Assembly (NCBI GenBank): GCA_016207275.1 | Contig: JACQPY010000007.1 | Coordinates: forward strand, 10,265 to 74,264 | Origin: Candidatus Kerfeldbacteria bacterium | GTDB taxonomy: Bacteria > Patescibacteriota > Patescibacteriia > SBBC01 | Direction: 5' to 3' | DNA length: 64,000 nt | Part shown: one piece after another, positions 6,994 to 51,853 of the stretch | How positions within the stretch are numbered: position 1 is the stretch's first letter | How the letters are laid out: the number at the start of each line of letters is the position of its first letter | The notes under the pieces: generated by a model | Told to the model about the DNA's origin: nothing | What the model saw: the letters and a program-made list of their open reading frames with translations, nothing else | Database searches by the model: none | Position numbers and translations under genes: made by a program

Positions 6994-8874
6994 GTGATCA
7001 TGTTGCAAAAAACGCAACACAAAAACCACCGCCGATCTGAACACGTGACGCGCGCGATGACCCTTCGCGCGTGGATTGTCATCAGCGTCGTGACGACCAT
7101 GCTAGTTGGCCCAATCGCACCCGGCTCGCTCGAGGCGGCGACAAAGAAAGAAACGACCGACGCGGCGCTCCTGGTCAATCAGTCGAACCGACTGATCACC
7201 TTGCCGCCGGGCAAGGCAGTCACCGTCTGGTTTGAGTTTCAGAACGTGGGGACGTCGACCTGGACTAACCAAGATCCTGACCCGGTCGGGCTCAATACCG
7301 ACGACCCGCTGCGTCGGAAGAGTAAGTTCCAGACTAAGCGGTGGCGGGCCTTTTGGCGTCCGACTCGTCTGCTGCAGGACAAGGTCAAGCCCGGAGCGGT
7401 TGGGCGGTTCCGTTTTGCGGTTAAAGCGCCGATAAAACCTGGCATTTGGCGCGAAAGTTTTTCATTGGTCCACGGCACCAAGACCCGCATCGCCGGTGGC
7501 CAAGCCGAGTTTATCATGATCGTCGGTCAGCCGGCTGACCTGGCGCAGGTCTTCCGCGCCCAACCAAAAAAAACATCGCTCTCATTCTGGGTTAAACCCG
7601 GCGATCGCATTTACTACCCGCTCGAGTTTCGCAACGTTGGCCACGCTTCCTGGCGACGCGACGGCTGGGGCACCACCAATCTCGGTCGCGTCAACCCCGA
7701 AGGCAGTCCGGCCATCGCTTCCACCAGTTCGCTGTCGCTCCAAACCACACCGACGATCGTCAAAGCCGCGACCCGACGGCAGTACACTTCAGCAATTCTC
7801 GACATCGTCGCCCCGACCGAGACTGGCTTGTACCGAGACAGCTTCGGCTTGGTTGGACCGAACGGACCGATTAGCGGCAGCGCCGTCACGGTCGAGGTCA
7901 ACGTCAGCCAGGACCCCCAGCCGCCCTTTGACGCTGAGCCGATCGTCCGGGTCGGCATCTACGCGCCGGCCAAACCGGTGGTGGTGACCGCGAATGGCTC
8001 GTACGAAATTAGGAATGCCGACACCAATGAGTACCTCGGCACGAACGCCGCCGACAGCACCGCCACGGTGACGTACGACCCTACCATCGGCCGCTACACG
8101 CTGCTGAGCAATGCGGTGGCCACGACCTACCCGCACGCCCTCCGCTTCGTTCCCCCCACTGACCAAACCATTATCGAAATCCAGAGTTTCTCCAACAAGC
8201 GGGAGGTGACGATTGACGGCCAGACCGCCACGGTCAACGACAACAAGTTTCGCGGCGCGGTCGAGGTCCGCTACGCACCGGCGACCAGCAAGCTGTGGGT
8301 GATCAATGAACTGCCGATCGAGCAGTACCTCTGGGGCTTAGCCGAAACTACCAACCGCGCGCCGCTTGAGTTCGTCAAAACACTGGTCACGGCGGCCCGC
8401 AGCTACGCCCTCTACCACCGGCTTCGGGCGACCAAGCACGCCGACGAAAATTACCACCTCAACAGCACCACTGACCAGCTCTACCGCGGCTACAACTACG
8501 AGCAGCGCCACCCCAACATCGCCGTCGGTACCCAGGCCACGCGCGGCATCGTCGCCACCCACCCATCAATGGTCAACGAAAAAAATACCATCGGCGCGAT
8601 TGTCGCCGCTTACTCGTCCTGCACTGACGGCCGGACGCGGAGCTACGTAGAGCGGTGGGGCGGCACGCCTGGCCTATTCCCTTACCTGATTTCAGTGCCG
8701 GATCCAGACGGTCTGTGCACCAATCAGCGCTGGCTCCAAGGCCTCGACGGCAACCACATGGTCGGCATGTCGGCGCTCGGCGCGCTGCGGTCAGTGGCTA
8801 ACCAAAACCTGACCTACGACGCGGTGCTGCGCTACTACTACACCGGCGTATCGTTACTTAGGGCCTACCAGTAG
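6994..8874 (+). CDS. Secreted SpoIID/LytB-domain protein with N-terminal tandem repeat domains
   Basis: EQYLWGLAETTNRAPLEFVKTLVTAARSYALYH matches the SpoIID/LytB core. Repeated VWFEFQNVGTSTW and YYPLEFRNVGHASW modules. The signal peptide starts at the alternative ATG at 7057. Confidence 0.6.
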   Translation: MIMLQKTQHKNHRRSEHVTRAMTLRAWIVISVVTTMLVGPIAPGSLEAATKKETTDAALLVNQSNRLITLPPGKAVTVWFEFQNVGTSTWTNQDPDPVGLNTDDPLRRKSKFQTKRWRAFWRPTRLLQDKVKPGAVGRFRFAVKAPIKPGIWRESFSLVHGTKTRIAGGQAEFIMIVGQPADLAQVFRAQPKKTSLSFWVKPGDRIYYPLEFRNVGHASWRRDGWGTTNLGRVNPEGSPAIASTSSLSLQTTPTIVKAATRRQYTSAILDIVAPTETGLYRDSFGLVGPNGPISGSAVTVEVNVSQDPQPPFDAEPIVRVGIYAPAKPVVVTANGSYEIRNADTNEYLGTNAADSTATVTYDPTIGRYTLLSNAVATTYPHALRFVPPTDQTIIEIQSFSNKREVTIDGQTATVNDNKFRGAVEVRYAPATSKLWVINELPIEQYLWGLAETTNRAPLEFVKTLVTAARSYALYHRLRATKHADENYHLNSTTDQLYRGYNYEQRHPNIAVGTQATRGIVATHPSMVNEKNTIGAIVAAYSSCTDGRTRSYVERWGGTPGLFPYLISVPDPDGLCTNQRWLQGLDGNHMVGMSALGALRSVANQNLTYDAVLRYYYTGVSLLRAYQ

Positions 8875-26601: not shown

Positions 26602-29178
26602 GTGTCTATCATGACAGAAAAAAGTATGCCAGACCTCCAAAAAATCTACGATCCAAAATCGGTTGAACAGCCGACCTACCAGCGCTGGTTAAAGTCTGGT
26701 TACTTCAACCCTGACAAGTTGCCGAACGCGAAGAAGCGCAAACCATTCTCGATTGCCATGCCGCCACCGAACGTTACCGGCGAGCTGCACATCGGCCACT
26801 CGCTCGATCTCACGACCCAAGACATTCTCACGCGCTGGAAACGGATGAGCGGATTCGCGTCACTGTGGCTGCCGGGCACTGACCACGCCGGCATTGCCAC
26901 GCAAATCCTGGTCGAACGGACGCTCCGCGAACAGGGCATCTCGCGCTACGCCATCGGCCGGGAAACATTTTTGAAGCACGTCTGGCAATGGAAAGAAAAA
27001 TACGGCGAACGCATTGTCGAGCAAATCAAGCGCCTGGGCGCCTCCTGCGACTGGTCGCGCGAGCACTTTACCATGGACCCGCGGCTGTCCGAAGCGGTGC
27101 AAACCGCCTTTGTTCGGCTGTACCACGACGGCTTGGTCTACCGCGGCGAACGGGTCATCCACTGGTGTACCGATGACCAAACGGGTATTTCCGACCTGGA
27201 AGTCGACTACCGCGAAGAGGCCGGCACCCTCTGGTACATTCGCTACCCGCTGCTGACCGGCAACGAGTACGTCACCGTGGCCACCACCCGACCGGAAACC
27301 ATGCTCGGCGACACCGGCGTGGCCGTCCACCCCGACGATCCGCGCTACAAAAAAATTCTCGGCCAGCGGGTTAAGCTGCCGATTTCCGGACGGATCGTGC
27401 CGATCGTCGCTGATCGCGCCGTTGACCCGCAGTTTGGCACGGGCGCGGTCAAGGTCACCCCGGCCCACGACGTGCTTGACTTTGAAATCGGCGAGCGGCA
27501 GGGTTTGTCTAAGCTCGTGGTCATCGATCACCACGGCCGGATGACGGCCGCCGCCGGTCGTGACTTTACCGGGATGGGCACGCTCGAAGCGCGCGAATTG
27601 GTCGTCCGACTGCTCCGCGAATCCGGCAACCTCGTTAAGACCGAAGACTTCACCCACAACGTCGCGTACTGCTCACGGTCGGCGACACGAATCGAGCCGT
27701 TGCTCTCCAGGCAGTGGTTCGTTAAAACCAAACCGCTGGCTACTTTGGCCTTGGCTGCCCTCCGGTCGAAGAAAACCGTGGTCGTTCCTGAACGGTTTGC
27801 CAAAGTTCTGGTCCGCTGGCTCACCAACATCCGCGACTGGAACATTTCCCGCCAGCTGTGGTGGGGCCACCGCTTGCCGATCTGGTACTGCATTGCCTGC
27901 GACGAGCCGGTCGCCTCGATTAAAGAACCCAAAGCCACCTGCCGGCGTTGCCGTAACCGCGGTTACCGACATGACGACGATACGCTCGATACCTGGTTCT
28001 CCTCGGCCCTGTGGACCTTTTCCACCCTCGGTTGGCCAAAAAAAACCAAAGACTTGAGACGGTTCCACCCCACGGCCGTTCTTGGCACCGGCTGGGACAT
28101 CCTCTTTTTCTGGGTCGCCCGGATGGTGATGTTTTCACGCTACTTCCTGAAAGAAGTACCGTTCAAAACCGTCTACATTCACGGTCTCGTGCTCAATCAA
28201 CAGGGCCAGAAAATGTCCAAATCAAAAGGCACCGGCATTGACCCCATCCCAATGGCCGAGAAATACGGAACTGATGCGCTGCGCCTCTCGTTGGTCGTCG
28301 GCACGGCACCCGGTCTCGACTTCCGCATGTCCGAGCAGAAAATCGCCGGTCAGCGAAACTTCTGCAACAAACTCTGGAACGTCAGCCGGTATGTGCTAAC
28401 ACAGCCCCCCCTTGCTAAGGGGGGGCGGAGGAGCCGCCAGGCGCCGCGGGGGGGTGGGAGCAGGGGTGGTACGTTCGCCGATGCCTGGATTCTCGCTCGA
28501 CTTAACGAAGTTACAAGTACCGTCACCCAGCACCTCGACAAGTACCAATTCGGACTGGCGGTGGAGGCCTTGCAACAATTTCTGTGGAAAGACTTTGCTG
28601 ACTGGTACGTGGAGATTCACAAAGTTGAAAAGAACACGGCCGTGCTGCGCCATGTCCTGCGACAATGCCTAATACTCCTCCATCCCTTTGCGCCGTTTAT
28701 CACTGAAGCAATCTGGAAAGCCATGGGCGAAAAACGGCTGCTGATGATCGAATCGTGGCCAACTAACAAAAATCGGTACCAGCATGAGCTTCGAACTATT
28801 CAAGGGTTCAAAAACTTTCAACGCCTGGTAATCGGCCTGCGCAACCTCAAAATCCACGGCGCCAACAACCAACCGCTGTCAATCCAACCAACTACTAAGC
28901 TCAACCGTGAACTGCTGGCCAGACTGACTGGCGTTGCCTTCGCCGACCAAGCACCGACTGAGGCTGACCGCGTCGTCATCGCCGATGAGCAGTTGATGGT
29001 GCCGGGGGCGGTGGCCAAACAATATGCCGACTGGCGCCGGCGCGAAGTCGAGCAGCTCAACCGCTACATCGCTCAAAAAGAACAACTCGTCGCCAACGCC
29101 AAAGCGCCGGAGCACGTGCGGGCGCAAGCTCAAGCCGATCTGAATGCCGCTCGGAGCCGGATAGCCGAACTAGAGTAA
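26602..29178 (+). CDS. valS: Valine--tRNA ligase
   Basis: HIGH (ELHIGHSLDL), KMSKS, and a C-terminal coiled coil. GTG start at 26602 or ATG at 26611. It contains an in-frame GC-rich palindromic insertion at 28404-28470. Confidence 0.9.
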   Translation: MSIMTEKSMPDLQKIYDPKSVEQPTYQRWLKSGYFNPDKLPNAKKRKPFSIAMPPPNVTGELHIGHSLDLTTQDILTRWKRMSGFASLWLPGTDHAGIATQILVERTLREQGISRYAIGRETFLKHVWQWKEKYGERIVEQIKRLGASCDWSREHFTMDPRLSEAVQTAFVRLYHDGLVYRGERVIHWCTDDQTGISDLEVDYREEAGTLWYIRYPLLTGNEYVTVATTRPETMLGDTGVAVHPDDPRYKKILGQRVKLPISGRIVPIVADRAVDPQFGTGAVKVTPAHDVLDFEIGERQGLSKLVVIDHHGRMTAAAGRDFTGMGTLEARELVVRLLRESGNLVKTEDFTHNVAYCSRSATRIEPLLSRQWFVKTKPLATLALAALRSKKTVVVPERFAKVLVRWLTNIRDWNISRQLWWGHRLPIWYCIACDEPVASIKEPKATCRRCRNRGYRHDDDTLDTWFSSALWTFSTLGWPKKTKDLRRFHPTAVLGTGWDILFFWVARMVMFSRYFLKEVPFKTVYIHGLVLNQQGQKMSKSKGTGIDPIPMAEKYGTDALRLSLVVGTAPGLDFRMSEQKIAGQRNFCNKLWNVSRYVLTQPPLAKGGRRSRQAPRGGGSRGGTFADAWILARLNEVTSTVTQHLDKYQFGLAVEALQQFLWKDFADWYVEIHKVEKNTAVLRHVLRQCLILLHPFAPFITEAIWKAMGEKRLLMIESWPTNKNRYQHELRTIQGFKNFQRLVIGLRNLKIHGANNQPLSIQPTTKLNRELLARLTGVAFADQAPTEADRVVIADEQLMVPGAVAKQYADWRRREVEQLNRYIAQKEQLVANAKAPEHVRAQAQADLNAARSRIAELE
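28404..28470. repeat. Palindromic element inserted in-frame in valS (GCCCCCCCTTgctAAGGGGGGGC plus a GCGGaggagCCGC hairpin and a GGGGGGGTGGGAG tail)
   Basis: It shares the tail motif CGCGGGG(A/G)GGTGGGAG with the tsaD element. It encodes PPLAKGGRRSRQAPRGGGSRGG in a variable loop between RYVL and ADxWIL. Confidence 0.65.
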
Positions 29179-29222
29179 TTCAAACACCTCGGCCAGCTCT
29201 TTGGCGGCTTTGGCAGAACTGG
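29165..29222 (-). pseudogene. Orphan duplicated 3' end of the CsoR/RcnR-family gene (...SAKAAKELAEVFELL*)
   Basis: The 23-bp perfect direct repeat gccagctctttggcggctttggc at 29192-29214 and 29819-29841 (about 33 bp with 1 mismatch). The minus-strand translation reproduces the last 13-15 aa of the 29797..30060 gene. Confidence 0.6.
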
Positions 29223-29335
29223 AGTAATGCTAAAGTTCTCGACTTCGCTCGAACAGCAGTTTTATTATTGTTCTTCGAGCGCCCCGCCATGCGGCGGGGG
29301 AGTCGAGAAGTGCACGACACTTGTAACCGCCGCGT

Positions 29336-29800
29336 TTATATCAATGCTAGCTGTTTGTCGAGCGGTGGATTTGAAAAATATGCACGAACATCAAAGCTCG
29401 AGTCAACCAGCTCAATCATTTCCATACTTCCGCGCTCGATGAGTTTGAATCCCGGCCTTTGAAGGTTAACGCTTTTGAAGAGCTGGTAGTTCGAAACGGT
29501 GAAATCGGCATCGCCGCGTTCGGTGCGTGTCGGGTCAGGTGCGCGTATCTTCAGCAGCCTTAAATCGCCGGCGACCGTGCGCAGCGGATCTATTTGAAAC
29601 AGCGGGCCGGTTGGTGTTTCCTTAATAACGCTTCCAAAATGTCGCGCCGCATCGACGAGCGTTGTATATTCATCTTGGGTCTGCGCGAAAACTGCAGCAT
29701 AGTTGACTGGTGCGTTTGTCTCACTCGTATGTTTATCACGAAGATTGCGTGACTGCGTTACAATTTCCTGCACCAATGACTTGAGGTCTTCAGCGGTCAC
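29336..29800 (-). CDS. Hypothetical protein, located inside the lower-GC segment bounded by the duplicated csoR-family gene end
   Basis: 154-aa ORF. No recognisable motif. Its 4-bp overlap with the downstream gene start is created by the insertion. Confidence 0.45.
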   Translation of the reverse strand: MTAEDLKSLVQEIVTQSRNLRDKHTSETNAPVNYAAVFAQTQDEYTTLVDAARHFGSVIKETPTGPLFQIDPLRTVAGDLRLLKIRAPDPTRTERGDADFTVSNYQLFKSVNLQRPGFKLIERGSMEMIELVDSSFDVRAYFSNPPLDKQLALI

Positions 29801-30060
29801 AGCAGCTCAAATAGCTCAGCCAGCTCTTTGGCGGCTTTGGCGGTTTTGCCACTGGCGACATCAGCGGCCACCGACGTGTTCAAGTACTGTTCAATCAAGG
29901 CGGCGTCGAACTTTTTGAGGGCGTTTTGCACGGCCCGCGACTGACGCAACACTTCAACAGCCGGTTTACCGTCAGCCAGCATCTTGCGAATGGCGGTCAA
30001 GTGGCCGTCAATAATCGCCAGCCGGTGCTCAATGGTTCGCCTCGAATCCATGCCTTTCAT
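29797..30060 (-). CDS. CsoR/RcnR/FrmR-family (DUF156) metal-sensing transcriptional repressor
   Basis: IEHRLAIIDGHLTAIRKML...VLRQSRAVQNAL. The start was chosen at MKGMDSRR (30060). The longer ORF-track form is unlikely. Confidence 0.65.
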   Translation of the reverse strand: MKGMDSRRTIEHRLAIIDGHLTAIRKMLADGKPAVEVLRQSRAVQNALKKFDAALIEQYLNTSVAADVASGKTAKAAKELAELFELL

Positions 30061-30136
30061 ACATACCTCTTTCCGATCATTCGCCCTATTCGTAAGTATT
30101 CGCAGGGGATTGTGGGCGAATGTGCTGACAACCTGA

Positions 30137-30155
30137 ATCCCCCGTAGGGGGATTA
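30137..30155. repeat. Perfect palindrome AATCCCCCgtaGGGGGATT
   Basis: Intergenic, between the csoR-family gene and pilB. Confidence 0.5.
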
Positions 30156-30210
30156 TACCATTGCCCAGATTGCTTAACAATCCCCACCACCTCCCCACCG
30201 CTTCGCGGTC

Positions 30211-30232
30211 TCCCCTCCACAATTGTGGAGGG
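30211..30232. repeat. Perfect 22-nt palindrome CCCCTCCACAATTGTGGAGGGG (palindromic element family variant)
   Basis: The sequence equals its own reverse complement. It lies in the csoR-pilB intergenic region and is followed by a GTCC/GGAC hairpin. Confidence 0.6.
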
Positions 30233-30258
30233 GATGTCCGGAGGACAGGGGCGGTGAC

Positions 30259-31950
30259 TTACTCCGCCACCGAAAATACCTCTTCCACCGTGGTAATCCC
30301 ATCTAGCGCTTTCAGTAATCCATCTTGCGCCATGGTCAGCATGCCTTGGTCGCGGGCCAGTTCGCGCAGGTCAGCCTCGGCGGCCGTGCCGGAGAGAATT
30401 AATTTTTCCAGCTGGCCGTTCATCTCTAAAACCTCAAAAATGCCGATCCGGCCGCGGTAGCCAATCCCGTGGCAAACATCGCAGCCCGCGCCTTTCTTAA
30501 ACCGCCACGACGTGTGCTGGCCAGGTCGATCAGGACTGGAAGCGGGGATGTCGGCCAGCGCGCGCTTGACCCGTTCGAGCATTTCCGGATCAAGCTGATC
30601 GTCGACGACGCACCGGTCGCAAATCTTGCGGACCAGCCGCTGGCCCATCATCAAGTTCAAGGCCGGCGCCAGCAGGTACGGCTTCGTGCCCATGGACAGC
30701 AATCGCGGGATGACGCCGATGGCATCGTTGGTGTGCAGCGTCGAGAGCACGAGGTGGCCGGTCAGCGCCGCCTGAATCGCGGTCTCGGCCGTTTCCAGGT
30801 CGCGAATTTCGCCGACCATAACGATGTCCGGGTCTTGCCGCAGCATGGCGCGCAAGCCCTTGGCAAAGGTGTAGCCCTTTGACCAATCGACTTGACTTTG
30901 GTTGATCCCAGGCAAGCTGTATTCGATCGGATCTTCCAGGGTGATGATCTTGGTGTCCGGTTTGTTCAGCTTGACGGCAATAGCATAGAGCGTCGTGGTT
31001 TTTCCGGAACCGGTCGGCCCCGAGGTAAGGAGCATGCCGTTCGGCCGGTCGATGTGCTGCACCAACAATCTGAAGGCTCGACCGCGCAGGCCCAGCTGCT
31101 CGAAGGTGATGCTGACGTTTGAGCCCATCAGGAGCCGCATGACGACGCTTTCGCCGTAGGCGGTCGGCAGGGTCGAGACGCGAACGTCAATGTGCTGGTT
31201 ATCGAGCAGCAGCGTCACCCGGCCGTCCTGCGGCACCTTATCAACGTTAATTTTCAATCCGGCAATCAGCTTGATGCGGTTGATGATCCGCGGCCAAGCG
31301 TCCTTGGGTAAGGCGGCGACCGTCTGCAGCACGCCGTCAATTCGGTAGCGGACCTTAACATCCTGCTCCTCGGCCTCGATGTGGACGTCAGAAGCGGCGG
31401 CCTCGATCGCCCCGGCTAGGATGAGCGTAAAGACTTCGGTCAGCGGCACGCTCCTGACCTTCTGTTCGAGGGCGCGAAAATCTTTCAGTTCCTGCCGGTA
31501 CCGTCGGACCGCATCCTGCCGAATCTCGAGGCCGGTCGTAACTTTACGCGGCTGGGGAATGCGGTCGTAGAGTTTTAGCGCGCTCAAAAAGCTGTGCTCA
31601 GAAATGACGTACAGGCCGACGTGGGCGTTGTTCTCAGCGGCGATTGTCTCAACCAGTTGGGCCACACCGTCGCGCTCCGGATCAACGGCCGCCAGCCGAA
31701 TTTCATGGCCGCTCCGCAAGAAACAAACTACCTGGAGCTTAACGGCCACGTCCTTGGCAATCGTCGCCAGCGTTTCCGGACCGATCGGAAAACCGGTCAA
31801 GTTTATGTAGGGCAAACCTAAGCGCGACCCGCGCTCCTGCGTCAGGTGCTCTTTCTCCTTCAGCTTGATCTCCGCCATCTTCTCGCGGAACTTCTCTTCG
31901 GTTTCCGGCGAGGCAATGCGGAGATTCGACGTTTGGTCATCCATGTCCAC
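30259..31950 (-). CDS. Type II/IV secretion system ATPase GspE/PilB
   Basis: Walker A LLTSGPTGSGKTTTLYA. Asp box. A His box region. N-terminal GSPII-like domain. Confidence 0.85.
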   Translation of the reverse strand: MDMDDQTSNLRIASPETEEKFREKMAEIKLKEKEHLTQERGSRLGLPYINLTGFPIGPETLATIAKDVAVKLQVVCFLRSGHEIRLAAVDPERDGVAQLVETIAAENNAHVGLYVISEHSFLSALKLYDRIPQPRKVTTGLEIRQDAVRRYRQELKDFRALEQKVRSVPLTEVFTLILAGAIEAAASDVHIEAEEQDVKVRYRIDGVLQTVAALPKDAWPRIINRIKLIAGLKINVDKVPQDGRVTLLLDNQHIDVRVSTLPTAYGESVVMRLLMGSNVSITFEQLGLRGRAFRLLVQHIDRPNGMLLTSGPTGSGKTTTLYAIAVKLNKPDTKIITLEDPIEYSLPGINQSQVDWSKGYTFAKGLRAMLRQDPDIVMVGEIRDLETAETAIQAALTGHLVLSTLHTNDAIGVIPRLLSMGTKPYLLAPALNLMMGQRLVRKICDRCVVDDQLDPEMLERVKRALADIPASSPDRPGQHTSWRFKKGAGCDVCHGIGYRGRIGIFEVLEMNGQLEKLILSGTAAEADLRELARDQGMLTMAQDGLLKALDGITTVEEVFSVAE

Positions 31951-45559: not shown

Positions 45560-47589
45560 GGTTGCGCCAGGTGATTCAGGAGTTCGCCAATCAGTCGGCG
45601 GAGTAGGTCCACGTACCGCCGCCGATTCGGGTCGCGTGGTCCGAGGTTGACCAGGGTAATCGCCAGAATGTCGAGTGCGCTCCGCAGCTCGAAGGTCGGG
45701 AGCGAAGCTCGTACCTGGTGACGCTGTTGTTGGTTGAGTGACTGGAGATAGGCTTGGGTGAATCGTTCTCGCAGTCGGTTGATGACGCCAGGGACGAGGT
45801 GACCGTGGAGCATGACGTTAAGGTGCATGCGGAATATACCGAGGTCTATGGCTGGATGTCCGATGCCGCTCTGGGTGAAGTCTATCAGCCCAATCCCGGA
45901 CGGAACGGCGATGATATTGCTGGCCTGAAAGTCGTGATGGACCAAGGCGCGCCGATCGTACCAGCGGGTTCGTTCCGCGGCCGTGATGGACTGGAACGTT
46001 TTTCTGAGGTTTAGAAGTGCCCCGGGCCCACCTTGCTTAATCTGTCGTTCCAGCCGACGCAGGAAACGCCGTTCCGCTGACCAGGTTAAGTGTCGCAGGC
46101 CCGCGGTCGGGACCCGCTGGAATCGGGCTAAGGCGCGGCCCGCCGCCACCACGAGTTTGGCAAAATGACCTGAACGGAAGGGGACCAGCCGCAGCGGAGC
46201 GCCGACTAACTCTTCGTAAAAGACGTACCTGAGCTGTGGTTCATACCGTAGCGGCCGAATACTGGCGAAGCCCTGGCGGTGCTGCCAAACGCGGGCCATC
46301 ACTGCAAAACTCGCGTGATCAATCCGATTCCCCCGGACTAGCCTGTAACTGGTCTGGCCGTCCGGCCAGACGATATTCAGTCGGTAGCGCATCAGGTAGC
46401 TCTGTATCGACAGGGCGCGGTGGTGCTCGAGCTGGAGCCGAGCCAGCGTCTGCGCCCCCGGGAAAAACTGTTTGAGGTGGGTGGTAAAGTAGGCCTGCAT
46501 GGTACCGCGGTTTTGCAGGGCGCGCGGCAAGGTAGCGGGCCTGACCGCGGATAGCGCGAGCGGTGGCGGGAAACGGCCGCCAATCAGCAGCTGTTCGGCG
46601 GTGATCAAGGCGGCTCGCGCTATCCGGCGGCCAAGCGCGGGGCGAATAGACAAGGTATAGGCCAGAACCTGCAGGCTCCACCAGGCGCGGTGGAGCTTGA
46701 TCCGTTGGCCTGCCTGCGGTCCGACCTCGACGAGGGCCGGCCGGTAACCAGTCATAAAAGCTCGTCCGAGCCGTTGGGCGAAGCGTCGGCGGCAGCGGCC
46801 TTTCCAGACGAGCAAGTCGACTTGGGCAAAGAAATTGCCTACATCGCTCAAAGGGTCAAAGGTGACGCTGTTGCCAAAGTCAATAAAAGCCGTGCTGCCG
46901 TCGCGGCTGGCAATGATGTTGTCGAGGTTGAGGTCGCCGTGGATGGTGCGGAAGTATCGGCCGTAGCGGCGACCGACCTCAACCTGGGCAGCGGTGGCGG
47001 CCTGGAGAAGCCGGACTGCGTGCTCGAGGTATGCCGGCGCCGCTCGGACAACGTCATCACGGAAGTAGTTGGCGTCCCGTTCAATGCGGGCCGGCGTTCG
47101 TCGCGGACTGGTCTGGAGGCGCAGCCGGTGCAGCCGAGCCAGCCACCGGCCGGCGTCGCGGGCCGTCGCGACGGCCAGCGAACCGCCCCGTTCGATCAGC
47201 CGCTCGAGCGGTATGCCTGGCGAATCTTGGTACAGGTGGAGTCGGAGGCGACGAACCACGCCAAATGAGGCCGGAGCGCGCAGCCGGTCGGCCGAAAAAC
47301 TGGACCGCGTCAGCACCTGCTGTAACCGGTCGGCGATCGACGCTTCGTTGCCCGTGTCCTTACTCGGAATGTTGCCGCGGATGATGTGCCGCATCGTCCG
47401 GCCGCCGGGGCGGCGGAGCGTCAGATCGTAGCGAAGTGAGTGCTTAAAGGAAAAGCGACCGATTTCGCGGGCGCTGGCCGACCGGAGCGTGGTGCCAGGC
47501 GGGTAGGCGCGACGGACGATCCGCGACAGCAGCGGGCGCATGGCCTGAATCGTTCGGGCTTGCCGGACGAGCTTGCCCTCGGTCGTCAT
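45556..47589 (-). CDS. Tandem APH/maltokinase-like phosphotransferase (two kinase-like domains)
   Basis: Domain 1 has IHGDLNLDNII...IDFG. Domain 2 has LVHHDFQASNII...IDFT. Sits in an alpha-glucan context with 4-bp overlaps on both sides. Confidence 0.55.
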   Translation of the reverse strand: MTTEGKLVRQARTIQAMRPLLSRIVRRAYPPGTTLRSASAREIGRFSFKHSLRYDLTLRRPGGRTMRHIIRGNIPSKDTGNEASIADRLQQVLTRSSFSADRLRAPASFGVVRRLRLHLYQDSPGIPLERLIERGGSLAVATARDAGRWLARLHRLRLQTSPRRTPARIERDANYFRDDVVRAAPAYLEHAVRLLQAATAAQVEVGRRYGRYFRTIHGDLNLDNIIASRDGSTAFIDFGNSVTFDPLSDVGNFFAQVDLLVWKGRCRRRFAQRLGRAFMTGYRPALVEVGPQAGQRIKLHRAWWSLQVLAYTLSIRPALGRRIARAALITAEQLLIGGRFPPPLALSAVRPATLPRALQNRGTMQAYFTTHLKQFFPGAQTLARLQLEHHRALSIQSYLMRYRLNIVWPDGQTSYRLVRGNRIDHASFAVMARVWQHRQGFASIRPLRYEPQLRYVFYEELVGAPLRLVPFRSGHFAKLVVAAGRALARFQRVPTAGLRHLTWSAERRFLRRLERQIKQGGPGALLNLRKTFQSITAAERTRWYDRRALVHHDFQASNIIAVPSGIGLIDFTQSGIGHPAIDLGIFRMHLNVMLHGHLVPGVINRLRERFTQAYLQSLNQQQRHQVRASLPTFELRSALDILAITLVNLGPRDPNRRRYVDLLRRLIGELLNHLAQP

Positions 47590-48959
47590 GGCTTGGTCGA
47601 GCTCGGCTGTTCGTACCGGCGCAGTTCTTTAATTCGGTCGCGGAGTTGCGCCGCCCGTTCGAACTCTTGTCGACTCGCCACCAAGGCCATCTCCTTTTCC
47701 AGGTTTTTGATGATTTTCTCGATCTCCCGTTTTGGCAACGTCGGCATGCCCTCGTCGGTACGTTGGCGGATTTCCTCGTCTTCCTGTTTCGACAGCGCCT
47801 CGACAATGCCCTCCCGCTGCCAATCGAAGCCGGTAAAGACGATTCGCTGGTAGAGATCAGTCGCCCGGCGTTTAGCCTCGTCGCTCGCGCCCGGCGTTTT
47901 CAGGACTACATCTCTCAGTTCCTTGGCTCCGCGCTCGATCATTTCCAGCGACCACCACGGCTTGGCCGAGGCCCACCAGTACTGATCAGAGTGCAGCGCT
48001 CGGTCCAGCAGCTGGCGGGCTTCAGCGTAACTTGGGCCGGTAGCGCTAGCGGCCCCGAGGGTGGCGATCGCCAGATCAGTCAGCTGCCACTGCAGCTGGT
48101 GAATAGTGTTGTCCTGATCGTCCCAGCGGGCGAAGGGGACGCTGCGCTCCAAGTCCTTTTCCATCAACGCCCAGGTTGACGGCAAGAGGCTGACCGAGGC
48201 GGTCGCGGTGAAGCGCTGCGGCAAATCAGAAATCAGCACGGTTTCCAGGAGCTTCGATTCGTAGACTTCGAAAAGGAGGTGCTCCATGCCCGGTCGGTGG
48301 TGGCCAAACGTTTCACCATCCATCGCCGTTAGGAGGTACTCGTGGCGTTGGAGCCGGTCGCCCAAACCTTCGATTAAGAGGTTGCCGGTGCCGAGCTGAC
48401 CAGAGAGAATTTTGTAGCTCATCCGCCGTTCGCGGAAGTAGATTTTCAAGGCCGGGGCGTCGGCATTGGTGTAGATTTTGGCGTAGTCAATTTTGCCGAG
48501 TTGGCGGTTAAAAGATAACTCATCGCAGATAATCCATTCAAAGCCGAGCCGGGACACGACTTCAGCCACGTGTTTTGAGATGCCCATTTCCGGTGGGAAA
48601 AATCCACGCGGTCGGTAGAGGTCGCCGAAGTACTGGCGATGTGTTTGAGTATTGAGCTCAATTTGCCGGATAATTTCTTGATCCGGAAGTCGGGGGAGCA
48701 GGGGATGGAACTTGGCCGAACCGGTCAGCTCGATTTGTCCGCATTTCAGCAGTTCGCGGACGAGGTCAATGACATCGGTCGCGCCGTTCTGTTCCCACAG
48801 CTCGACCAAAATGGAGCTGATATTCATGGTGGTCCGCGCGTGCGCGTGTTCGAGCATGCCGCGGAGAATTGGTCGGTACGACTCGGCCGTGATTTTTTTC
48901 ACCCAAAACAGCTTCTGGGTCGGCGGTTGGTAGAAGTGCAGGAAGTTGGCCCAAATCAT
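47586..48959 (-). CDS. Glycoside hydrolase family 57 domain fused to a C-terminal UVR (UvrB/UvrC-type) motif
   Basis: N-terminal MIWANFLHFYQPP GH57 signature. C-terminal QEFERAAQLRDRIKELRR UVR helix-hairpin. Confidence 0.6.
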   Translation of the reverse strand: MIWANFLHFYQPPTQKLFWVKKITAESYRPILRGMLEHAHARTTMNISSILVELWEQNGATDVIDLVRELLKCGQIELTGSAKFHPLLPRLPDQEIIRQIELNTQTHRQYFGDLYRPRGFFPPEMGISKHVAEVVSRLGFEWIICDELSFNRQLGKIDYAKIYTNADAPALKIYFRERRMSYKILSGQLGTGNLLIEGLGDRLQRHEYLLTAMDGETFGHHRPGMEHLLFEVYESKLLETVLISDLPQRFTATASVSLLPSTWALMEKDLERSVPFARWDDQDNTIHQLQWQLTDLAIATLGAASATGPSYAEARQLLDRALHSDQYWWASAKPWWSLEMIERGAKELRDVVLKTPGASDEAKRRATDLYQRIVFTGFDWQREGIVEALSKQEDEEIRQRTDEGMPTLPKREIEKIIKNLEKEMALVASRQEFERAAQLRDRIKELRRYEQPSSTKP

Positions 48960-49158: not shown

Positions 49159-50376
49159 TTAGTTTACACTTTTTCCGCCGAGGTAGCGAGGCATTGGCTC
49201 GTGGCGCATGAAGCGCTTGAGGTGACGGTCGGCGGCGCCGGAAGCGTGCCAGCGATGAGCGGTGTTTTTGATGCTCCCGACCAACCTACGGACTCGTTCG
49301 AGGGTCGAGTGCGGCGGGCTGAGCTCCTCAGCCAGAAGCCGCAGCCGTTCGGCGGCCTGCATAATGATGTCGACGTCCCACCACGGCTCGCGTGAGGCCC
49401 ACCAGTACCAGTCGCTAGCCATCGTCTGGTCGAATTCGGTCCGGATCGGCCGGGGCAGTCGGTCGCGGCGTTCGTGGTGGTAGACTAACTTGAGCACGGT
49501 GGTAAACAGCGCCCATTGGAGCTGGTGCAGGTGATTTGCGGGGTTTCGCCAGAGGACAAAGGGCACGTCGCGAGCCAGGTCGGCTGGCCGACTGGACCAG
49601 CTGGCCGCCCGCGGCCGGACGGTGCGCGGACCGTCGAGCGATTTAAGCACCTCCGAGATGGTCACCGTTTCGACGGTGGGAAGCCGGACCAGGTGCTGCC
49701 ACATTTTTTTGGCCGCCCGCCGGTGGTGGCCAAGGTTTTCGCCGTCCATCGCCGTGATCAGTAGACTCTTCTGCCCGTTCCATCGCTGGACCGTCGAGAA
49801 GAACTTGTGAACGTCCCCAGGTTGCGCTTCGAACGCCAGGTAGTCGCTGACAAAGCGGTTGCGGAAAACGGCGGTCAGGGTCGTGCCGGCGATTCGGTAC
49901 TGTTGTTCGTAGTTAACCAGTCCCGGGTGACTGATCCCGTCAAGGATAACCCAGCGGTAGCCGAGCTGGCTGAGCCACCGGCCGAGCTTGGCATTGTAGG
50001 CCATCTCCGGCGGAAAGAAGCCGGCCGGCCGGTAGGCCGAACCAAAGGCTCGCCGGTTGGTGGCCCGGTTGAGAGTTACTTGACGCCGAACCTCGGCTTC
50101 CGGCAGGAGCGGCAGAATCGCGTGGTACATCGCCGAGTCGGTCAGTTCGACCTGGCCCCGCTGCAAGAGTCGACGGAGCCCGGTCACGATTGGCCGAAAG
50201 GCTCGCTGCTGCAGCTGCTCGGTCAGCGAGCCGGCAATATTAATGGTCACCCGCACGTCACGGTGGCTGAGCAAAAACGAGATCAGCGGGCGGTAGCTTT
50301 CCCGCGCCACTTTAGCGATGACGCGCGTCGGCCAGTGCGGCGGCTGGTAGAGGTGAAAGAAGTTAGCCCAGCGCAT
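49159..50376 (-). CDS. Glycoside hydrolase family 57 protein (second copy)
   Basis: MRWANFFHLYQPPHWP. The start was set at the internal ATG 50376, because the longer ORF would overlap glgA-2. Confidence 0.6.
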   Translation of the reverse strand: MRWANFFHLYQPPHWPTRVIAKVARESYRPLISFLLSHRDVRVTINIAGSLTEQLQQRAFRPIVTGLRRLLQRGQVELTDSAMYHAILPLLPEAEVRRQVTLNRATNRRAFGSAYRPAGFFPPEMAYNAKLGRWLSQLGYRWVILDGISHPGLVNYEQQYRIAGTTLTAVFRNRFVSDYLAFEAQPGDVHKFFSTVQRWNGQKSLLITAMDGENLGHHRRAAKKMWQHLVRLPTVETVTISEVLKSLDGPRTVRPRAASWSSRPADLARDVPFVLWRNPANHLHQLQWALFTTVLKLVYHHERRDRLPRPIRTEFDQTMASDWYWWASREPWWDVDIIMQAAERLRLLAEELSPPHSTLERVRRLVGSIKNTAHRWHASGAADRHLKRFMRHEPMPRYLGGKSVN

Positions 50377-51853
50377 CAGAACGTTCGTGTGATCGTTGTT
50401 TTTGCAGCACCATCGCCTGTCGGTACAGCTCGACGTACTTCTCGGCCGGGATGTCCCAAGAATACGATTCTTGCATGGCTTGCCAGGCGAGGTGCTCCCA
50501 CACCTGCGGGTACTTGAAGGTTTCCAGGGCGCGGACGATTGCCACCAGCAGGTCGTCCGAGGCGTAGCGCGAAAAAACAAAACCCGTACCTTTGCCAGTG
50601 CGCGGATCGAAGTCCTCGATCGTGTCGGATAGGCCGCCGGTTTTGCGGACGATGGGAATGGAGCCATAGCGCAGGCTGATGAGCTGGGACATGCCGCACG
50701 GTTCGTAGCGGCTGGGCATCAAGAACATGTCTGAGCCGGCGTAAACCCGAGAGCCGAGTTCTTCGGTGAATGGCGTGAGCAAGGCGATGCGGCCGGGATA
50801 GGTCCGAGCTGCCCGCCTGAAAATGTTGACGTAGTCTCGGTCACCGGTGCCGACAATGACCATTTGGAGGGGCAGCTGCATCAGAACCGGCAGGATGTTT
50901 TTGATTAAGTCAAAGCCCTTCTGCTCGGTCAAACGATGAACCAGCCCGATCAGGGGAATATCGTCGCGCGGCTCGAGGCCGATCATTTTCTGAAGCTCGC
51001 CTTTGTTCTGACGCTTGCGGTCGAGAGAGTTCCAATCGTAGGGGTGCCACAGGTGCGAGTCAAACTGCGGGTTGTAGACTTGGTAGTCAATGCCGTTGAT
51101 GATTCCGAAGACATCTTTCTGACGACGGCGAAGGAGGCGGTCGAGGCCCTGACCGTACTCCGGGGTTAAAATTTCTTGGGCGTACCGGACGCTGACGGTA
51201 TTGATCGCGTCAGCGTAACGAATGCCCCGCTTGGCGAAGTTGACCCACCGGATTTTGGCACTGCTTTTCGGCAGCGGGCCGAGTCCGACATCAACTTTAT
51301 CTGACGGACCCTGCCACCAGTTTCCCTGCATTTGGAAGAGTAAGTTATGGATGGTGACGACGGTTGCCGTTTTGCTGAAAAACGGATTATCCTGCTCACG
51401 GGTCCGGAGAATATTTGGGATGATGGCGGTGTGCCAATCGTGGCAGTGAATGACGTCGGGTGGTTCGCCGAGGCGTTGGGCCAGCTGGACGACCGCCATC
51501 GAGAAGACGGCGAAGCGGAGGGCGTCGTTGTCGTGCCCGTACATGTAGACTTGATACCGGCCGTACAACTCCTCGCTACAAATAAAGTAGATGTCCAGAC
51601 CTTCGCGGAGTTTAAGGTGTTTAGTTTTTAGGTGGTAGGTGCCATCGCCGATCGCCACGTCGAACTCGATTCCCGGCTGATCGTAAGGAATCTCGGCGTT
51701 CTTCATGAAGCCGTAGAACGGCGTGACTGAGACGATCCGGTGTCCGAGCTTCGCCAGGTGTTTTGGCAAGGCGGCGGCCACGTCGCCTAAGCCGCCACTT
51801 TTCGAGTAGGGTGAGACTTCGGCGCTGGCGCTCAGGATAAAGAGGGGGTTCAT
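50363..51853 (-). CDS. glgA: Glycogen/starch synthase (GT5, second GlgA paralog)
   Basis: AEVSPYSKSGGLGDVAAALP. Confidence 0.8.
   Translation of the reverse strand: MNPLFILSASAEVSPYSKSGGLGDVAAALPKHLAKLGHRIVSVTPFYGFMKNAEIPYDQPGIEFDVAIGDGTYHLKTKHLKLREGLDIYFICSEELYGRYQVYMYGHDNDALRFAVFSMAVVQLAQRLGEPPDVIHCHDWHTAIIPNILRTREQDNPFFSKTATVVTIHNLLFQMQGNWWQGPSDKVDVGLGPLPKSSAKIRWVNFAKRGIRYADAINTVSVRYAQEILTPEYGQGLDRLLRRRQKDVFGIINGIDYQVYNPQFDSHLWHPYDWNSLDRKRQNKGELQKMIGLEPRDDIPLIGLVHRLTEQKGFDLIKNILPVLMQLPLQMVIVGTGDRDYVNIFRRAARTYPGRIALLTPFTEELGSRVYAGSDMFLMPSRYEPCGMSQLISLRYGSIPIVRKTGGLSDTIEDFDPRTGKGTGFVFSRYASDDLLVAIVRALETFKYPQVWEHLAWQAMQESYSWDIPAEKYVELYRQAMVLQKQRSHERSDALG

What the first reader, a model, noticed from the sequence alone, without database searches (positions are those of the whole stretch)
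29165..29841. Roughly 600-bp lower-GC insertion into the 3' end of a CsoR/RcnR-family gene, flanked by a duplicated gene end
A 23-bp perfect direct repeat (about 33 bp with one mismatch) lies at 29192-29214 and 29819-29841.

The downstream copy is the true 3' end of the metal-sensing repressor gene (...AKAAKELAELFELL*). The upstream copy, translated on the minus strand, gives an orphan ...SAKAAKELAEVFELL* with its own stop.

This is the signature of a site-specific integration that restores the target gene's C-terminus. Between the repeats lies AT-richer DNA with one 154-aa ORF of unknown function (29336..29800). No integrase is present, so this is either a very small cargo element or the remnant of a larger one.
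Basis: seen in the sequence. Interest (0 to 1): 0.55.

Follow-up and report, generated by a model that had tools for sequence, protein, structure and literature searches.

The report
Gene-insertion scar behind a repressor gene
A foreign 154-residue gene has been spliced in behind a small repressor gene of an uncultured groundwater bacterium, leaving the repressor's old 45-base end stranded next to valS; it is a real but fairly ordinary recombination scar at a spot where related genomes also gain and lose genes.

Summary
The repeat is real: 35 nt with 3 mismatches (23 exact) at 29180-29214 and 29807-29841. It appears in no shuffle and is identical in two independent single-run assemblies.

The upstream copy is a complete former end of the CsoR-family gene (…EVFELL*), and its stop codon overlaps the valS stop. 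Two relatives have exactly this "empty" arrangement, with valS and csoR converging and overlapping by 4 nt.

Between the copies lie:
- a second copy of the last 13 nt of valS;
- a 75-nt structured element (E), found elsewhere only in the closest relative;
- a gene of foreign composition (GC3 0.51 against 0.71), whose GTG start overlaps the csoR stop.

That gene belongs to a highly conserved, unannotated family of CPR bacteria and DPANN archaea with a YecM-like VOC fold. It is cargo, not a recombinase.

The junction is a variable slot. Relatives carry nothing, a membrane protein, E, other genes or ORF154 there. Two more relatives show the same csoR-tail duplication (26 nt and 41 nt), one with different cargo.

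No integrase, att structure or conserved ends were found. The best reading is duplicative recombination between an "empty" and a "filled" allele of this slot. Site-specific integration is not excluded.

The parts
26602..29178 (+). valS (valyl-tRNA synthetase), the conserved left border of the variable slot. It is about 96% identical to relative L010 over 28847-29116, and only about 75% identical over its last 60 nt.
   Evidence: Pfam tRNA-synt_1 at 2e-133 plus Anticodon_1; mosaic identity to L010.
29167..29179 (+). V: the last four valS codons plus one base (GAACTAGAGTAAT). Its CTA doubles as the TAG stop of the orphan csoR end on the other strand.
   Evidence: Sequence.
29170..29214 (-). Orphan former 3' end of the csoR-family gene (...AKAAKELAEVFELL*). 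By DNA homology it spans 29180-29214. It reads in frame to a stop that overlaps the valS stop by 9 nt, so it preserves the 'empty-site' junction.
   Evidence: It gives the same amino-acid end as L010 csoR. The empty arrangement is seen in L089 and L173. The region has no significant RNA structure.
29216..29228 (+). V': a second copy of the valS end (GAACTGGAGTAAT, 12 of 13 identical to V, with a synonymous CTA to CTG change). It marks the left edge of the 'filled' allele. The joint with the orphan (GGC A GAAC) has at most 2 nt of microhomology.
   Evidence: Sequence; inference.
29236..29309 (+). E: a Y-shaped structured element with a 9-bp closing stem (TTCTCGACT/AGTCGAGAA) and two hairpins. 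It probably acts as a terminator or RNA-end structure between convergent transcripts.
   Evidence: MFE -48 kcal/mol, z -6.7 on the + strand. The only other copy is in L010, at the same slot. The inner stem keeps pairing through double changes. No Rfam match.
29336..29800 (-). ORF154: the cargo gene, a YecM-like VOC-fold protein of unknown function. Its GTG start overlaps the csoR TGA (GTGA), and it has no promoter of its own.
   Evidence: 1123 homologues at 58-69% identity in CPR bacteria and DPANN archaea. No Pfam, NCBIfam, PHROG or PADLOC hit. AlphaFold2 pLDDT 96.8. Foldseek best hit 1K4N, E 5e-7, TMq 0.74, followed by VOC enzymes. GC3 0.51.
29807..29841 (-). Functional copy of the repeat: the present 3' end of the csoR-family gene (...AKAAKELAELFE, followed by LL* at 29797-29806).
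   Evidence: This tail is 34/45 identical to L010, whereas the gene body from 29842 on is about 98% identical.
29797..30060 (-). CsoR/RcnR-family repressor gene (87 aa). It lacks the canonical Cys-His-Cys ligand set.
   Evidence: PF02583 at 1.5e-15. Aligned to M. tuberculosis CsoR (2HH7), positions C36/H61/C65 are A/Y/S.
30136..30180 (-). Likely promoter and operator of the csoR-ORF154 operon: -35 TTGTTA, 17-nt spacer, TG-extended -10 TATAAT, abutting the palindrome AATCCCCCGTAGGGGGATT (30136-30154).
   Evidence: Promoter scan gives 10 of 12 matches. The palindrome was read from the sequence, and L010 has a similar one. The function is inferred.

Best explanation
The feature is the scar of a duplicative recombination at a variable slot between two convergent genes, valS and a CsoR-family repressor gene.

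One allele of this slot is 'empty'. The two genes overlap tail to tail, and csoR ends ...EVFELL* on top of the valS stop. Another allele is 'filled': valS, a 75-nt structured element E, ORF154, then csoR. In it ORF154 had earlier been captured directly behind csoR with overlapping stop and start codons, so it is read from the csoR promoter.

In the window lineage an empty-allele molecule and a filled-allele molecule were joined out of register. The empty allele runs from valS to 45 nt into csoR. It is joined, at a point with at most 2 nt of microhomology, to a filled allele that begins 13-16 nt before the valS stop.

Two routes give this product. One is one-ended, homology-facilitated illegitimate recombination of transforming DNA. 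The other is a single crossover of a small circle that carries 35 nt of csoR-tail homology.

The result leaves valS intact. It strands the old csoR end as an orphan with no use found for it, and gives csoR a replacement end followed by ORF154. ORF154 is cargo, a VOC-fold and probably metal-dependent enzyme, and not the agent of its own movement.

Shown: the anatomy, the empty and filled relatives, the foreign composition, the fold, and recombination mosaicism. Inferred: the order of events, the recombination route, and co-transcription of ORF154 with csoR.
For: - The repeat is real and is not an artefact.
- The orphan reads EVFELL* in frame across the valS stop. L010 csoR, 96% identical, has the same amino-acid end.
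- Empty alleles exist in L089 and L173.
- A filled allele with the same csoR/ORF154 start-stop overlap exists in L087/L088.
- The slot is variable. It holds a membrane protein (L007-9, L176), two copies of it (L022), membrane protein plus E (L010), membrane protein plus a 224-aa gene (L174), or two other genes (L172).
- The same csoR-tail duplication occurs with other content. L172 has 41 nt at 88% identity, spacing 1194, with a functional end EVFALL* and an orphan EVFELL*. L087/L088 have 26 nt.
- A second copy of the valS end lies beside the orphan. Any model with a filled-allele partner predicts this.
- The last 12 nt of the two csoR ends differ at 6 sites, all synonymous, next to a 23/23 identical core. 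That fits two old alleles joined by a recent crossover.
- Identity to L010 is mosaic, with 95-99% patches in a 70-75% background. This shows ongoing homologous recombination between lineages.
- Single crossover of a circular molecule is documented to duplicate part of the homologous locus, and HFIR is defined as one homologous plus one illegitimate end (PMC3240628).
- Orphans left behind by such displacement have been proposed for T6SS and Rhs loci (PMC5361080).
- ORF154 has a VOC fold and no recombinase features.
Against: - No filled allele without the orphan was found for the window's own lineage, so the postulated partner is inferred.
- Homology of 23-41 nt is near the lower limit for RecA-dependent crossover (from my own knowledge of minimal processing segments).
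- Three independent duplications end within about 13 nt of each other inside csoR. That clustering would also suit a site-specific enzyme.
- The near-identical L010-like patch in csoR starts at the inner edge of the repeat (between 29839 and 29851). Simple Campbell or break-repair versions then predict an L010-like orphan core, which is not seen. The orphan core is 23/23 identical to the functional tail but only 16/23 identical to L010.
- Natural transformation has not been shown for these bacteria.
Confidence: 0.55

Rival explanations
1. Site-specific integration. The last 30-45 nt of csoR are an attachment site for small integrase-less cassettes, moved by a recombinase encoded elsewhere. Each cassette carries its own copy of the csoR end, which replaces the resident one.
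For: - Direct repeats flank the insert, the target gene's end is restored and the composition is foreign.
- Three independent inserts at the same gene end carry different cargo (window, L172, L087/88).
- Mismatches cluster on the stop-proximal side of an identical core, as in attL/attR pairs.
Against: - There is no integrase in the insert, and none was seen in 64 kb by a weak test.
- The repeat has no dyad symmetry and its edges differ between cases.
- Insert ends share no sequence.
- The insert carries 13 nt of valS, which an element with defined ends would not need.
- ORF154 homologues elsewhere sit in unrelated contexts without a csoR tail.
- None was found in viral contigs.
Confidence: 0.2
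2. Replication or repair template switching within one chromosome. A filled allele (valS-E-ORF154-csoR) acquired a 49-nt templated patch at the valS end. The polymerase jumped 578 nt ahead, copied 35 nt of the csoR tail, and then jumped back.
For: - The structure can be written as a 49-nt insertion (35 nt of csoR tail, one base, and 13 nt of valS end) into a filled allele.
- The 23-nt core is identical between the copies.
Against: - It does not explain why the patch joins valS so as to read ELL* in frame (about 2e-4 by chance).
- It does not explain why the orphan carries the L010-like bases at 2 of its 3 mismatches.
- It does not explain why L172 shows an orphan with a complete EVFELL* end as well.
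- No microhomology is seen at the first jump.
Confidence: 0.1
3. The orphan is the leftover 3' end of a deleted membrane-protein gene. In relatives that gene overlaps the csoR tail by 26 nt. On this reading the orphan is not an old csoR end.
For: - In L008, L009 and L022 the membrane-protein gene and csoR overlap by 26 nt.
- In L087/88 the second repeat copy is that gene's 3' end.
Against: - The window's orphan extends about 18 nt beyond where the membrane gene's stop would lie.
- It has no stop codon in the membrane gene's reading frame.
- It continues into valS, reading ELL*.
Confidence: 0.05

Closest known systems
Integrative elements (prophages, genomic islands) inserted in the 3' end of a gene, flanked by attL/attR
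   Same: Direct repeats derive from the target gene's end. The inserted DNA supplies a replacement end. The displaced original end remains at the far side. The composition is foreign.
   Different: The insert is only 0.6 kb, with one cargo gene and no integrase. The repeat has no recognisable core symmetry. Repeat edges vary between cases. The insert also carries a piece of the other flanking gene (valS).
Homology-facilitated illegitimate recombination, and single-crossover integration of circular DNA (PMC3240628; de Vries & Wackernagel 2002 and Prudhomme et al. 2002, as cited in PMC5361080)
   Same: One junction is in register with homologous sequence and the other is non-homologous with little or no microhomology. 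Part of the homologous locus is duplicated, as seen for single crossovers. Both processes occur in populations that exchange DNA, and mosaic identity is seen here.
   Different: The homology is only 23-41 nt, whereas the duplications reported in E. coli were 109-950 bp. The process itself has not been observed in CPR bacteria. Which molecule was donor is unknown.
Orphan modules left by displacement at T6SS effector-immunity and Rhs loci (PMC5361080)
   Same: New content is added behind a conserved gene while the previous downstream piece is pushed along and kept as an orphan. The process recurs at one locus, and no integrase is known.
   Different: Here the orphan is only a 45-nt gene end with no use found for it, and the cargo is not a toxin-immunity pair.
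E. coli YecM (PDB 1K4N) and the vicinal-oxygen-chelate (VOC) superfamily
   Same: The predicted fold of ORF154 has two beta-alpha-beta-beta-beta modules after an N-terminal helix. TMq is 0.74 to 1K4N, and further hits are to extradiol dioxygenases, methylmalonyl-CoA epimerase, Mrd and FosB.
   Different: There is no sequence-level match to any Pfam family or PDB chain. Identity to 1K4N is 11%. Metal ligands and substrate are unknown.

Membership tests
Integrase-mediated integrative element at a gene 3' end | Direct repeats (att core) flank the insert, and one of them is the target gene's end | tested here: met
   35-nt repeat at 29180-29214 and 29807-29841.
Integrase-mediated integrative element at a gene 3' end | A tyrosine or serine recombinase gene lies in or next to the element | tested here: not met
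   The insert holds only ORF154 (VOC fold) and element E. No Xer-like ORF was found in the 64 kb window by phmmer with one query, which is a weak test. The rest of the genome was not available.
Integrase-mediated integrative element at a gene 3' end | The same crossover core is used in independent insertions | tested here: inconclusive
   Three cases share the same gene end, but the inner repeat edges lie about 45, 41 and 32 nt from the end of the stop codon, and the junctions share no motif.
Integron gene cassette | An attC recombination site at the cassette's 3' end, and an IntI/attI platform | tested here: not met
   There is no Rfam match. The only structured element (E) is found at this slot alone, in two genomes. 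No integrase was found.
IS element or MITE with target-site duplication | Terminal inverted repeats, a short TSD of fixed length, and multiple copies | tested here: not met
   The 627-nt unit has no terminal inverted repeats. The duplication is 35 nt here and 26 or 41 nt in relatives. There is one copy in the window. ORF154 has no transposase signature.
Homology-facilitated illegitimate recombination or single-crossover duplication | One junction in register with homologous DNA, the other non-homologous with 0 to a few nt of microhomology | tested here: met
   The functional tail is in register with csoR. The orphan/V' joint, GGC-A-GAAC, has at most 2 nt of possible microhomology.
Homology-facilitated illegitimate recombination or single-crossover duplication | Both partner alleles exist, and the lineages exchange DNA by homologous recombination | tested here: inconclusive
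   Empty alleles were seen in L089 and L173, and a filled allele in L087/88. Mosaic 95-99% patches against L010 show exchange. The exact filled partner of the window lineage was not found.
Homology-facilitated illegitimate recombination or single-crossover duplication | DNA uptake or transformation occurs in the organism | not testable with these tools
   A PilB-like T2SSE ATPase gene lies next to csoR, but competence cannot be inferred from it.
CsoR/RcnR family (PF02583) | Match to the family profile above the curated cut-off | tested here: met
   57.7 bits against a cut-off of 22.8.
CsoR/RcnR family (PF02583) | Cu(I) ligand set Cys36-His61-Cys65 (M. tuberculosis numbering) | tested here: not met
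   The aligned residues are Ala, Tyr and Ser, and the protein has no cysteine. It belongs to the fold family, but its effector is unknown.
VOC superfamily / YecM-like | Paired beta-alpha-beta-beta-beta modules | tested here: met
   AlphaFold2 model with pLDDT 96.8. Foldseek hit to 1K4N at E 5e-7, then VOC enzymes.
VOC superfamily / YecM-like | Sequence membership in a curated VOC or YecM family, and metal-binding residues | tested here: not met
   No Pfam or NCBIfam hit for the protein or for 39 relatives, and no PDB sequence hit. The invariant residues E94, D97, D99 and E130 are candidate ligands only.

The most novel reading that the evidence does not exclude
The 3' end of this CsoR-family gene is a dedicated landing site in Kerfeldbacteria. 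Tiny cassettes without an integrase (ORF154 with E; a two-gene unit in L172) would be inserted there by a recombinase acting in trans, or by a short-homology mechanism not yet described. Each cassette would bring a replacement gene end, giving a minimal gene-capture system in ultra-small genomes.
Probability: 0.15. Interest if true: 0.65.

Novelty: new member of a known kind. Interest (0 to 1): 0.35.

Why it matters
This locus gives a rare base-by-base view of how a genome-reduced, uncultured CPR bacterium gains a gene. Two convergent genes that overlap tail to tail form a slot. Related genomes hold different contents there, and these contents are exchanged as alleles through flanking homology. 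An out-of-register join preserved both the empty and the filled junction side by side.

It also shows a foreign gene being placed under a resident repressor's promoter simply by overlapping the stop and start codons.

Separately, the cargo belongs to an unannotated VOC-fold family that is about 60% identical between CPR bacteria and DPANN archaea. That family deserves biochemical attention.

None of this requires a new kind of mobile element.

Tried and rejected
1. **Assembly artefact: rejected.** Two single-run Logan contigs are identical to the window across both copies.

2. **ORF154 as a self-mobile cassette that makes 20-60-nt target duplications wherever it lands.**
   - A scan of 72 loci found flanking repeats around 7 ORF154 genes, against 3 of about 285 other ORFs.
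   - In L109, L125, L138, L107 and L162 the repeats turned out to be recurrent intergenic terminator/promoter modules, with 3 or more copies per locus.
   - The idea was dropped except for the csoR-linked cases.

3. **General link between ORF154 and csoR: rejected.** None of the 80 metagenome loci carries a csoR. The closest ORF154 homologues sit in unrelated contexts.

4. **Phage carriage: not found.** No relative was detected in IMG/VR.

5. **E as a repeated MITE or a known RNA: rejected.** There is no Rfam hit, and no other copy in the window or in 273 kb of relatives.

6. **Orphan as a valS terminator: rejected.** The region has no significant fold.

7. **Defence-island reading of the slot: no support.** There are no PADLOC hits.

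8. **Orphan as a remnant of the deleted membrane gene: disfavoured**.

9. **Whether the window's ORF154 and that of L088 are orthologues: left open.** L088's copy is a long branch.

10. **afdb50 fold library:** not available.


Full report
**Observation**

The window carries a direct repeat at 29180-29214 and 29807-29841. It is 35 nt long with 3 mismatches and a spacing of 627 nt. The exact 23-mer GCCAGCTCTTTGGCGGCTTTGGC occurs only at these two places, and no shuffle of the window gives two matches.

The downstream copy is the 3' end of an 87-aa PF02583 (CsoR/RcnR family) gene on the minus strand, 29797-30060.

The upstream copy, read on the minus strand, is ...GCC AAA GCC GCC AAA GAG CTG GCC GAG GTG TTT GAA TTA CTC TAG, which translates as ...AKAAKELAEVFELL*. 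Its last nine bases are the reverse complement of the valS end CTA GAG TAA.

Two Logan assemblies of separate sequencing runs (L005, L006) are identical to the window across both copies, so the repeat is not an assembly artefact. The window comes from a Candidatus Kerfeldbacteria MAG.

**Anatomy between the copies, read on the + strand**

| Coordinates | Feature |
|---|---|
| 29167-29179 | valS end GAACTAGAGTAAT (V) |
| 29180-29214 | orphan csoR tail |
| 29215 | one A |
| 29216-29228 | second copy of the valS end, GAACTGGAGTAAT (V', 12 of 13 identical) |
| 29229-29235 | seven bases |
| 29236-29309 | structured element E |
| 29310-29335 | 26 bases |
| 29336-29800 | ORF154, minus strand |
| 29797-29841 | functional csoR tail (stop codon, the last three codons, then the 35-nt repeat copy at 29807-29841) |

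The ORF154 GTG start overlaps the csoR TGA stop (GTGA).

- **Composition.** ORF154 has GC3 0.51, against 0.71 +/- 0.05 for 35 long ORFs of the window. The insert is among the 3% lowest-GC 600-nt stretches.
- **Element E.** E folds into a Y shape: -48 kcal/mol, z -6.7 on the + strand. It has no Rfam match. A covariance model finds it only here and in the closest relative L010, at the same slot. The inner stem keeps its pairing through double changes.
- **Promoter.** Upstream of csoR lies a promoter-like site: TTGTTA, 17 nt, then a TG-extended TATAAT (30180-30152). It abuts the palindrome AATCCCCCGTAGGGGGATT. ORF154 is therefore most likely read from the csoR promoter. This is an inference.

**What the cargo is**

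- ORF154 has no Pfam, NCBIfam, PHROG or PADLOC match.
- It has 1123 homologues at 58-69% identity. They come from CPR bacteria (Kerfeldbacteria, Chisholmbacteria and others) and DPANN archaea (Micrarchaeota, Aenigmarchaeota, Diapherotrites, Nanoarchaeia).
- A profile search of 1.8 billion cluster representatives finds 364 clusters, mostly stand-alone proteins of 150-160 aa. One is a fusion to an aldo/keto reductase.
- The AlphaFold2 model is confident (pLDDT 96.8). It matches E. coli YecM (1K4N, E 5e-7, TMq 0.74) and then VOC-superfamily enzymes.
- The family profile has no sequence-level hit in PDB or Pfam.
- ORF154 is therefore a cargo enzyme of unknown substrate, not a recombinase. No relative was found in viral contigs.

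**Relatives**

valS-based loci from GTDB genomes, and contigs encoding csoR homologues, show that the valS/csoR junction is a variable slot.

| Locus | Content between valS and csoR |
|---|---|
| L089, L173 | nothing; valS and csoR overlap by 4 nt |
| L007, L008, L009, L176 | a 193-200-aa membrane protein; in L008 and L009 (and in L022, below) its 3' end overlaps the csoR end by 26 nt |
| L022 | two copies of that membrane-protein gene |
| L010 | membrane protein plus E |
| L174 | membrane protein plus a 224-aa gene |
| L087/L088 | membrane protein plus ORF154 |
| L172 | two other genes |

- **L087/L088.** The csoR stop and ORF154 start overlap (ATGA), just as in the window. A 26-nt repeat flanks ORF154, and one copy serves as the membrane gene's end. 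ORF154 was therefore already sitting behind csoR before the window's scar formed.
- **L172.** A 41-nt repeat (88% identical, spacing 1194) flanks a different, GC-rich two-gene insert. The functional csoR ends EVFALL*, and the orphan keeps EVFELL*.
- **Other ORF154 homologues.** Elsewhere they lie in unrelated contexts with no csoR.

**Why the orphan is an old, once-functional gene end**

- After the shared TTTGA the orphan continues A TTA CTC TAG. This completes E-L-L-stop in frame, the same amino-acid end as in L010 (96% identical csoR). By my estimate a random junction would do this about once in 5000.
- The functional end reads GAG CTG CTG TGA and the orphan end GAA TTA CTC TAG. They differ at six sites, and all six are synonymous. 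They sit next to a core that is 23/23 identical.
- The V/V' difference (CTA against CTG) is also synonymous for valS. The CTA version is the one needed as TAG on the opposite strand.
- These are therefore two old alleles. One is dual-coded with valS (empty) and one is free of that constraint (filled). They have been brought together by a recent join.

**Mechanism**

The structure equals an empty allele running from valS to 45 nt into csoR, joined to a filled allele that starts 13-16 nt before the valS stop. The joint has at most 2 nt of microhomology.

Two routes give this product. One is one-ended homology-facilitated illegitimate recombination. The other is a single crossover of a small circle carrying about 35 nt of csoR tail. 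Single crossovers of circular molecules are documented to duplicate part of the homologous locus (PMC3240628). Orphans left by such displacement have been proposed at T6SS and Rhs loci (PMC5361080).

The lineages do exchange DNA. Identity to L010 alternates between 95-99% patches and a 70-75% background. The stretch 29117-29841 behaves as one slot allele between two L010-like patches.

Against a site-specific route:
- no integrase was found, though the test was weak;
- the repeat has no dyad symmetry;
- the insert ends share no sequence;
- the repeat edges differ between cases.

I cannot exclude the site-specific route. Three cases cluster within about 13 nt of each other, and the L010-like patch begins at the repeat's inner edge. 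No simple model predicts either observation (notebook section 'unexplained').

**Dead ends**

A wider idea was that ORF154 is a self-mobile cassette making long target duplications wherever it lands. It looked promising at first. It failed because, in most other loci, the flanking repeats are recurrent intergenic terminator/promoter modules. The orphan region has no significant RNA structure.

**Verdict**

The reading as an insertion that displaced and replaced the gene's end is right, and the predicted empty synteny exists. The claim of site-specific integration is not supported by any specific evidence.

This is a well-preserved recombination scar at a gene-gain hotspot, which is a known kind of event, in a CPR bacterium. 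The cargo family and the Cys-less CsoR-family regulator are side observations of some interest.

Noticed in passing
window 29336-29800 (-); homologues P0002-P0120; alignment A1: ORF154 belongs to an unannotated family that is about 60% identical between CPR bacteria and DPANN archaea. It has 1123 hits, and 364 clusters at 50% identity. Residues E94, G96, D97, A98, D99, F100, E130, Y141 and others are invariant. The predicted fold is a YecM-like VOC fold. One representative (P0139) is fused to an aldo/keto reductase.
   Followed up: partly
window 29236-29309 (+); L010 7135-7210: Element E is a 75-nt Y-shaped structured element (-48 kcal/mol, z -6.7). It is present only at the valS/csoR slot of the window and of its closest relative. 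The inner stem shows compensatory changes, and there is no Rfam family. In L010 it is flanked by a diverged 16-nt duplicate of the csoR/membrane-gene overlap (7095-7110 and 7218-7233).
   Followed up: partly
window 29797-30060 (-): The CsoR-family protein has no cysteine. The positions of the Cu(I) ligands C36/H61/C65 of M. tuberculosis CsoR are Ala/Tyr/Ser, so its effector is unknown. A CsoR-operator-like palindrome, AATCCCCCGTAGGGGGATT (30136-30154), abuts a strong -10 element.
   Followed up: partly
window 26602-30060 compared with L010: DNA identity to L010 is mosaic. It reaches 95-99% at about 26752-26977, 28477-28700, 28847-29116 and 29842-29976, in a 70-75% background. One patch edge (between 29839 and 29851) coincides with the inner edge of the 35-nt repeat.
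   Followed up: partly
L109 (658, 1759, 3220; 1234, 1798, 2807), L107 (3915, 4530, 5781, 6118), L162 (3978, 4472, 5480), L125, L138: In several low-GC CPR/DPANN contigs, ORF154 and its neighbouring genes are separated by recurrent intergenic modules of 19-42 nt. These are a terminator hairpin plus an extended -10, or a TATA-like box. They give cassette-array-like spacing of 500-1250 nt. These modules caused the apparent excess of flanking repeats around ORF154.
   Followed up: partly
L162 3842-3986: A 145-nt tRNA, presumably containing an intron, is found by Rfam (46.8 bits) but missed by ARAGORN. The ORF154 homologue starts 15 nt after it.
   Followed up: no
L172 1534-1574 and 2728-2768: This is a second, independent orphan csoR tail (41 nt, ...EVFELL*), 1194 nt beyond the functional end. 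The insert holds a nucleoside 2-deoxyribosyltransferase-like gene (weak Pfam hit) and a 150-aa unknown gene. The contig ends 15 nt after the orphan.
   Followed up: partly
L022 1763-2350 and 2397-2990: The 195-aa membrane-protein gene that occupies the valS/csoR slot is present here as a tandem pair. The family has no Pfam match.
   Followed up: no
window 30211-30234: A perfect 24-nt palindrome, TCCCCTCCACAATTGTGGAGGGGA, lies just downstream of the stop of the PilB-like T2SSE ATPase gene (30259-31950, -) and upstream of the csoR promoter. It is probably a terminator hairpin.
   Followed up: no
window 47586-48959 and 49159-50667 (-): These two neighbouring genes appear to be paralogues: their N-terminal sequences are similar and they share the only other direct repeat in the window (31 nt, 87% identical, 47952 and 49378). 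They were not scanned against any protein-family library.
   Followed up: no
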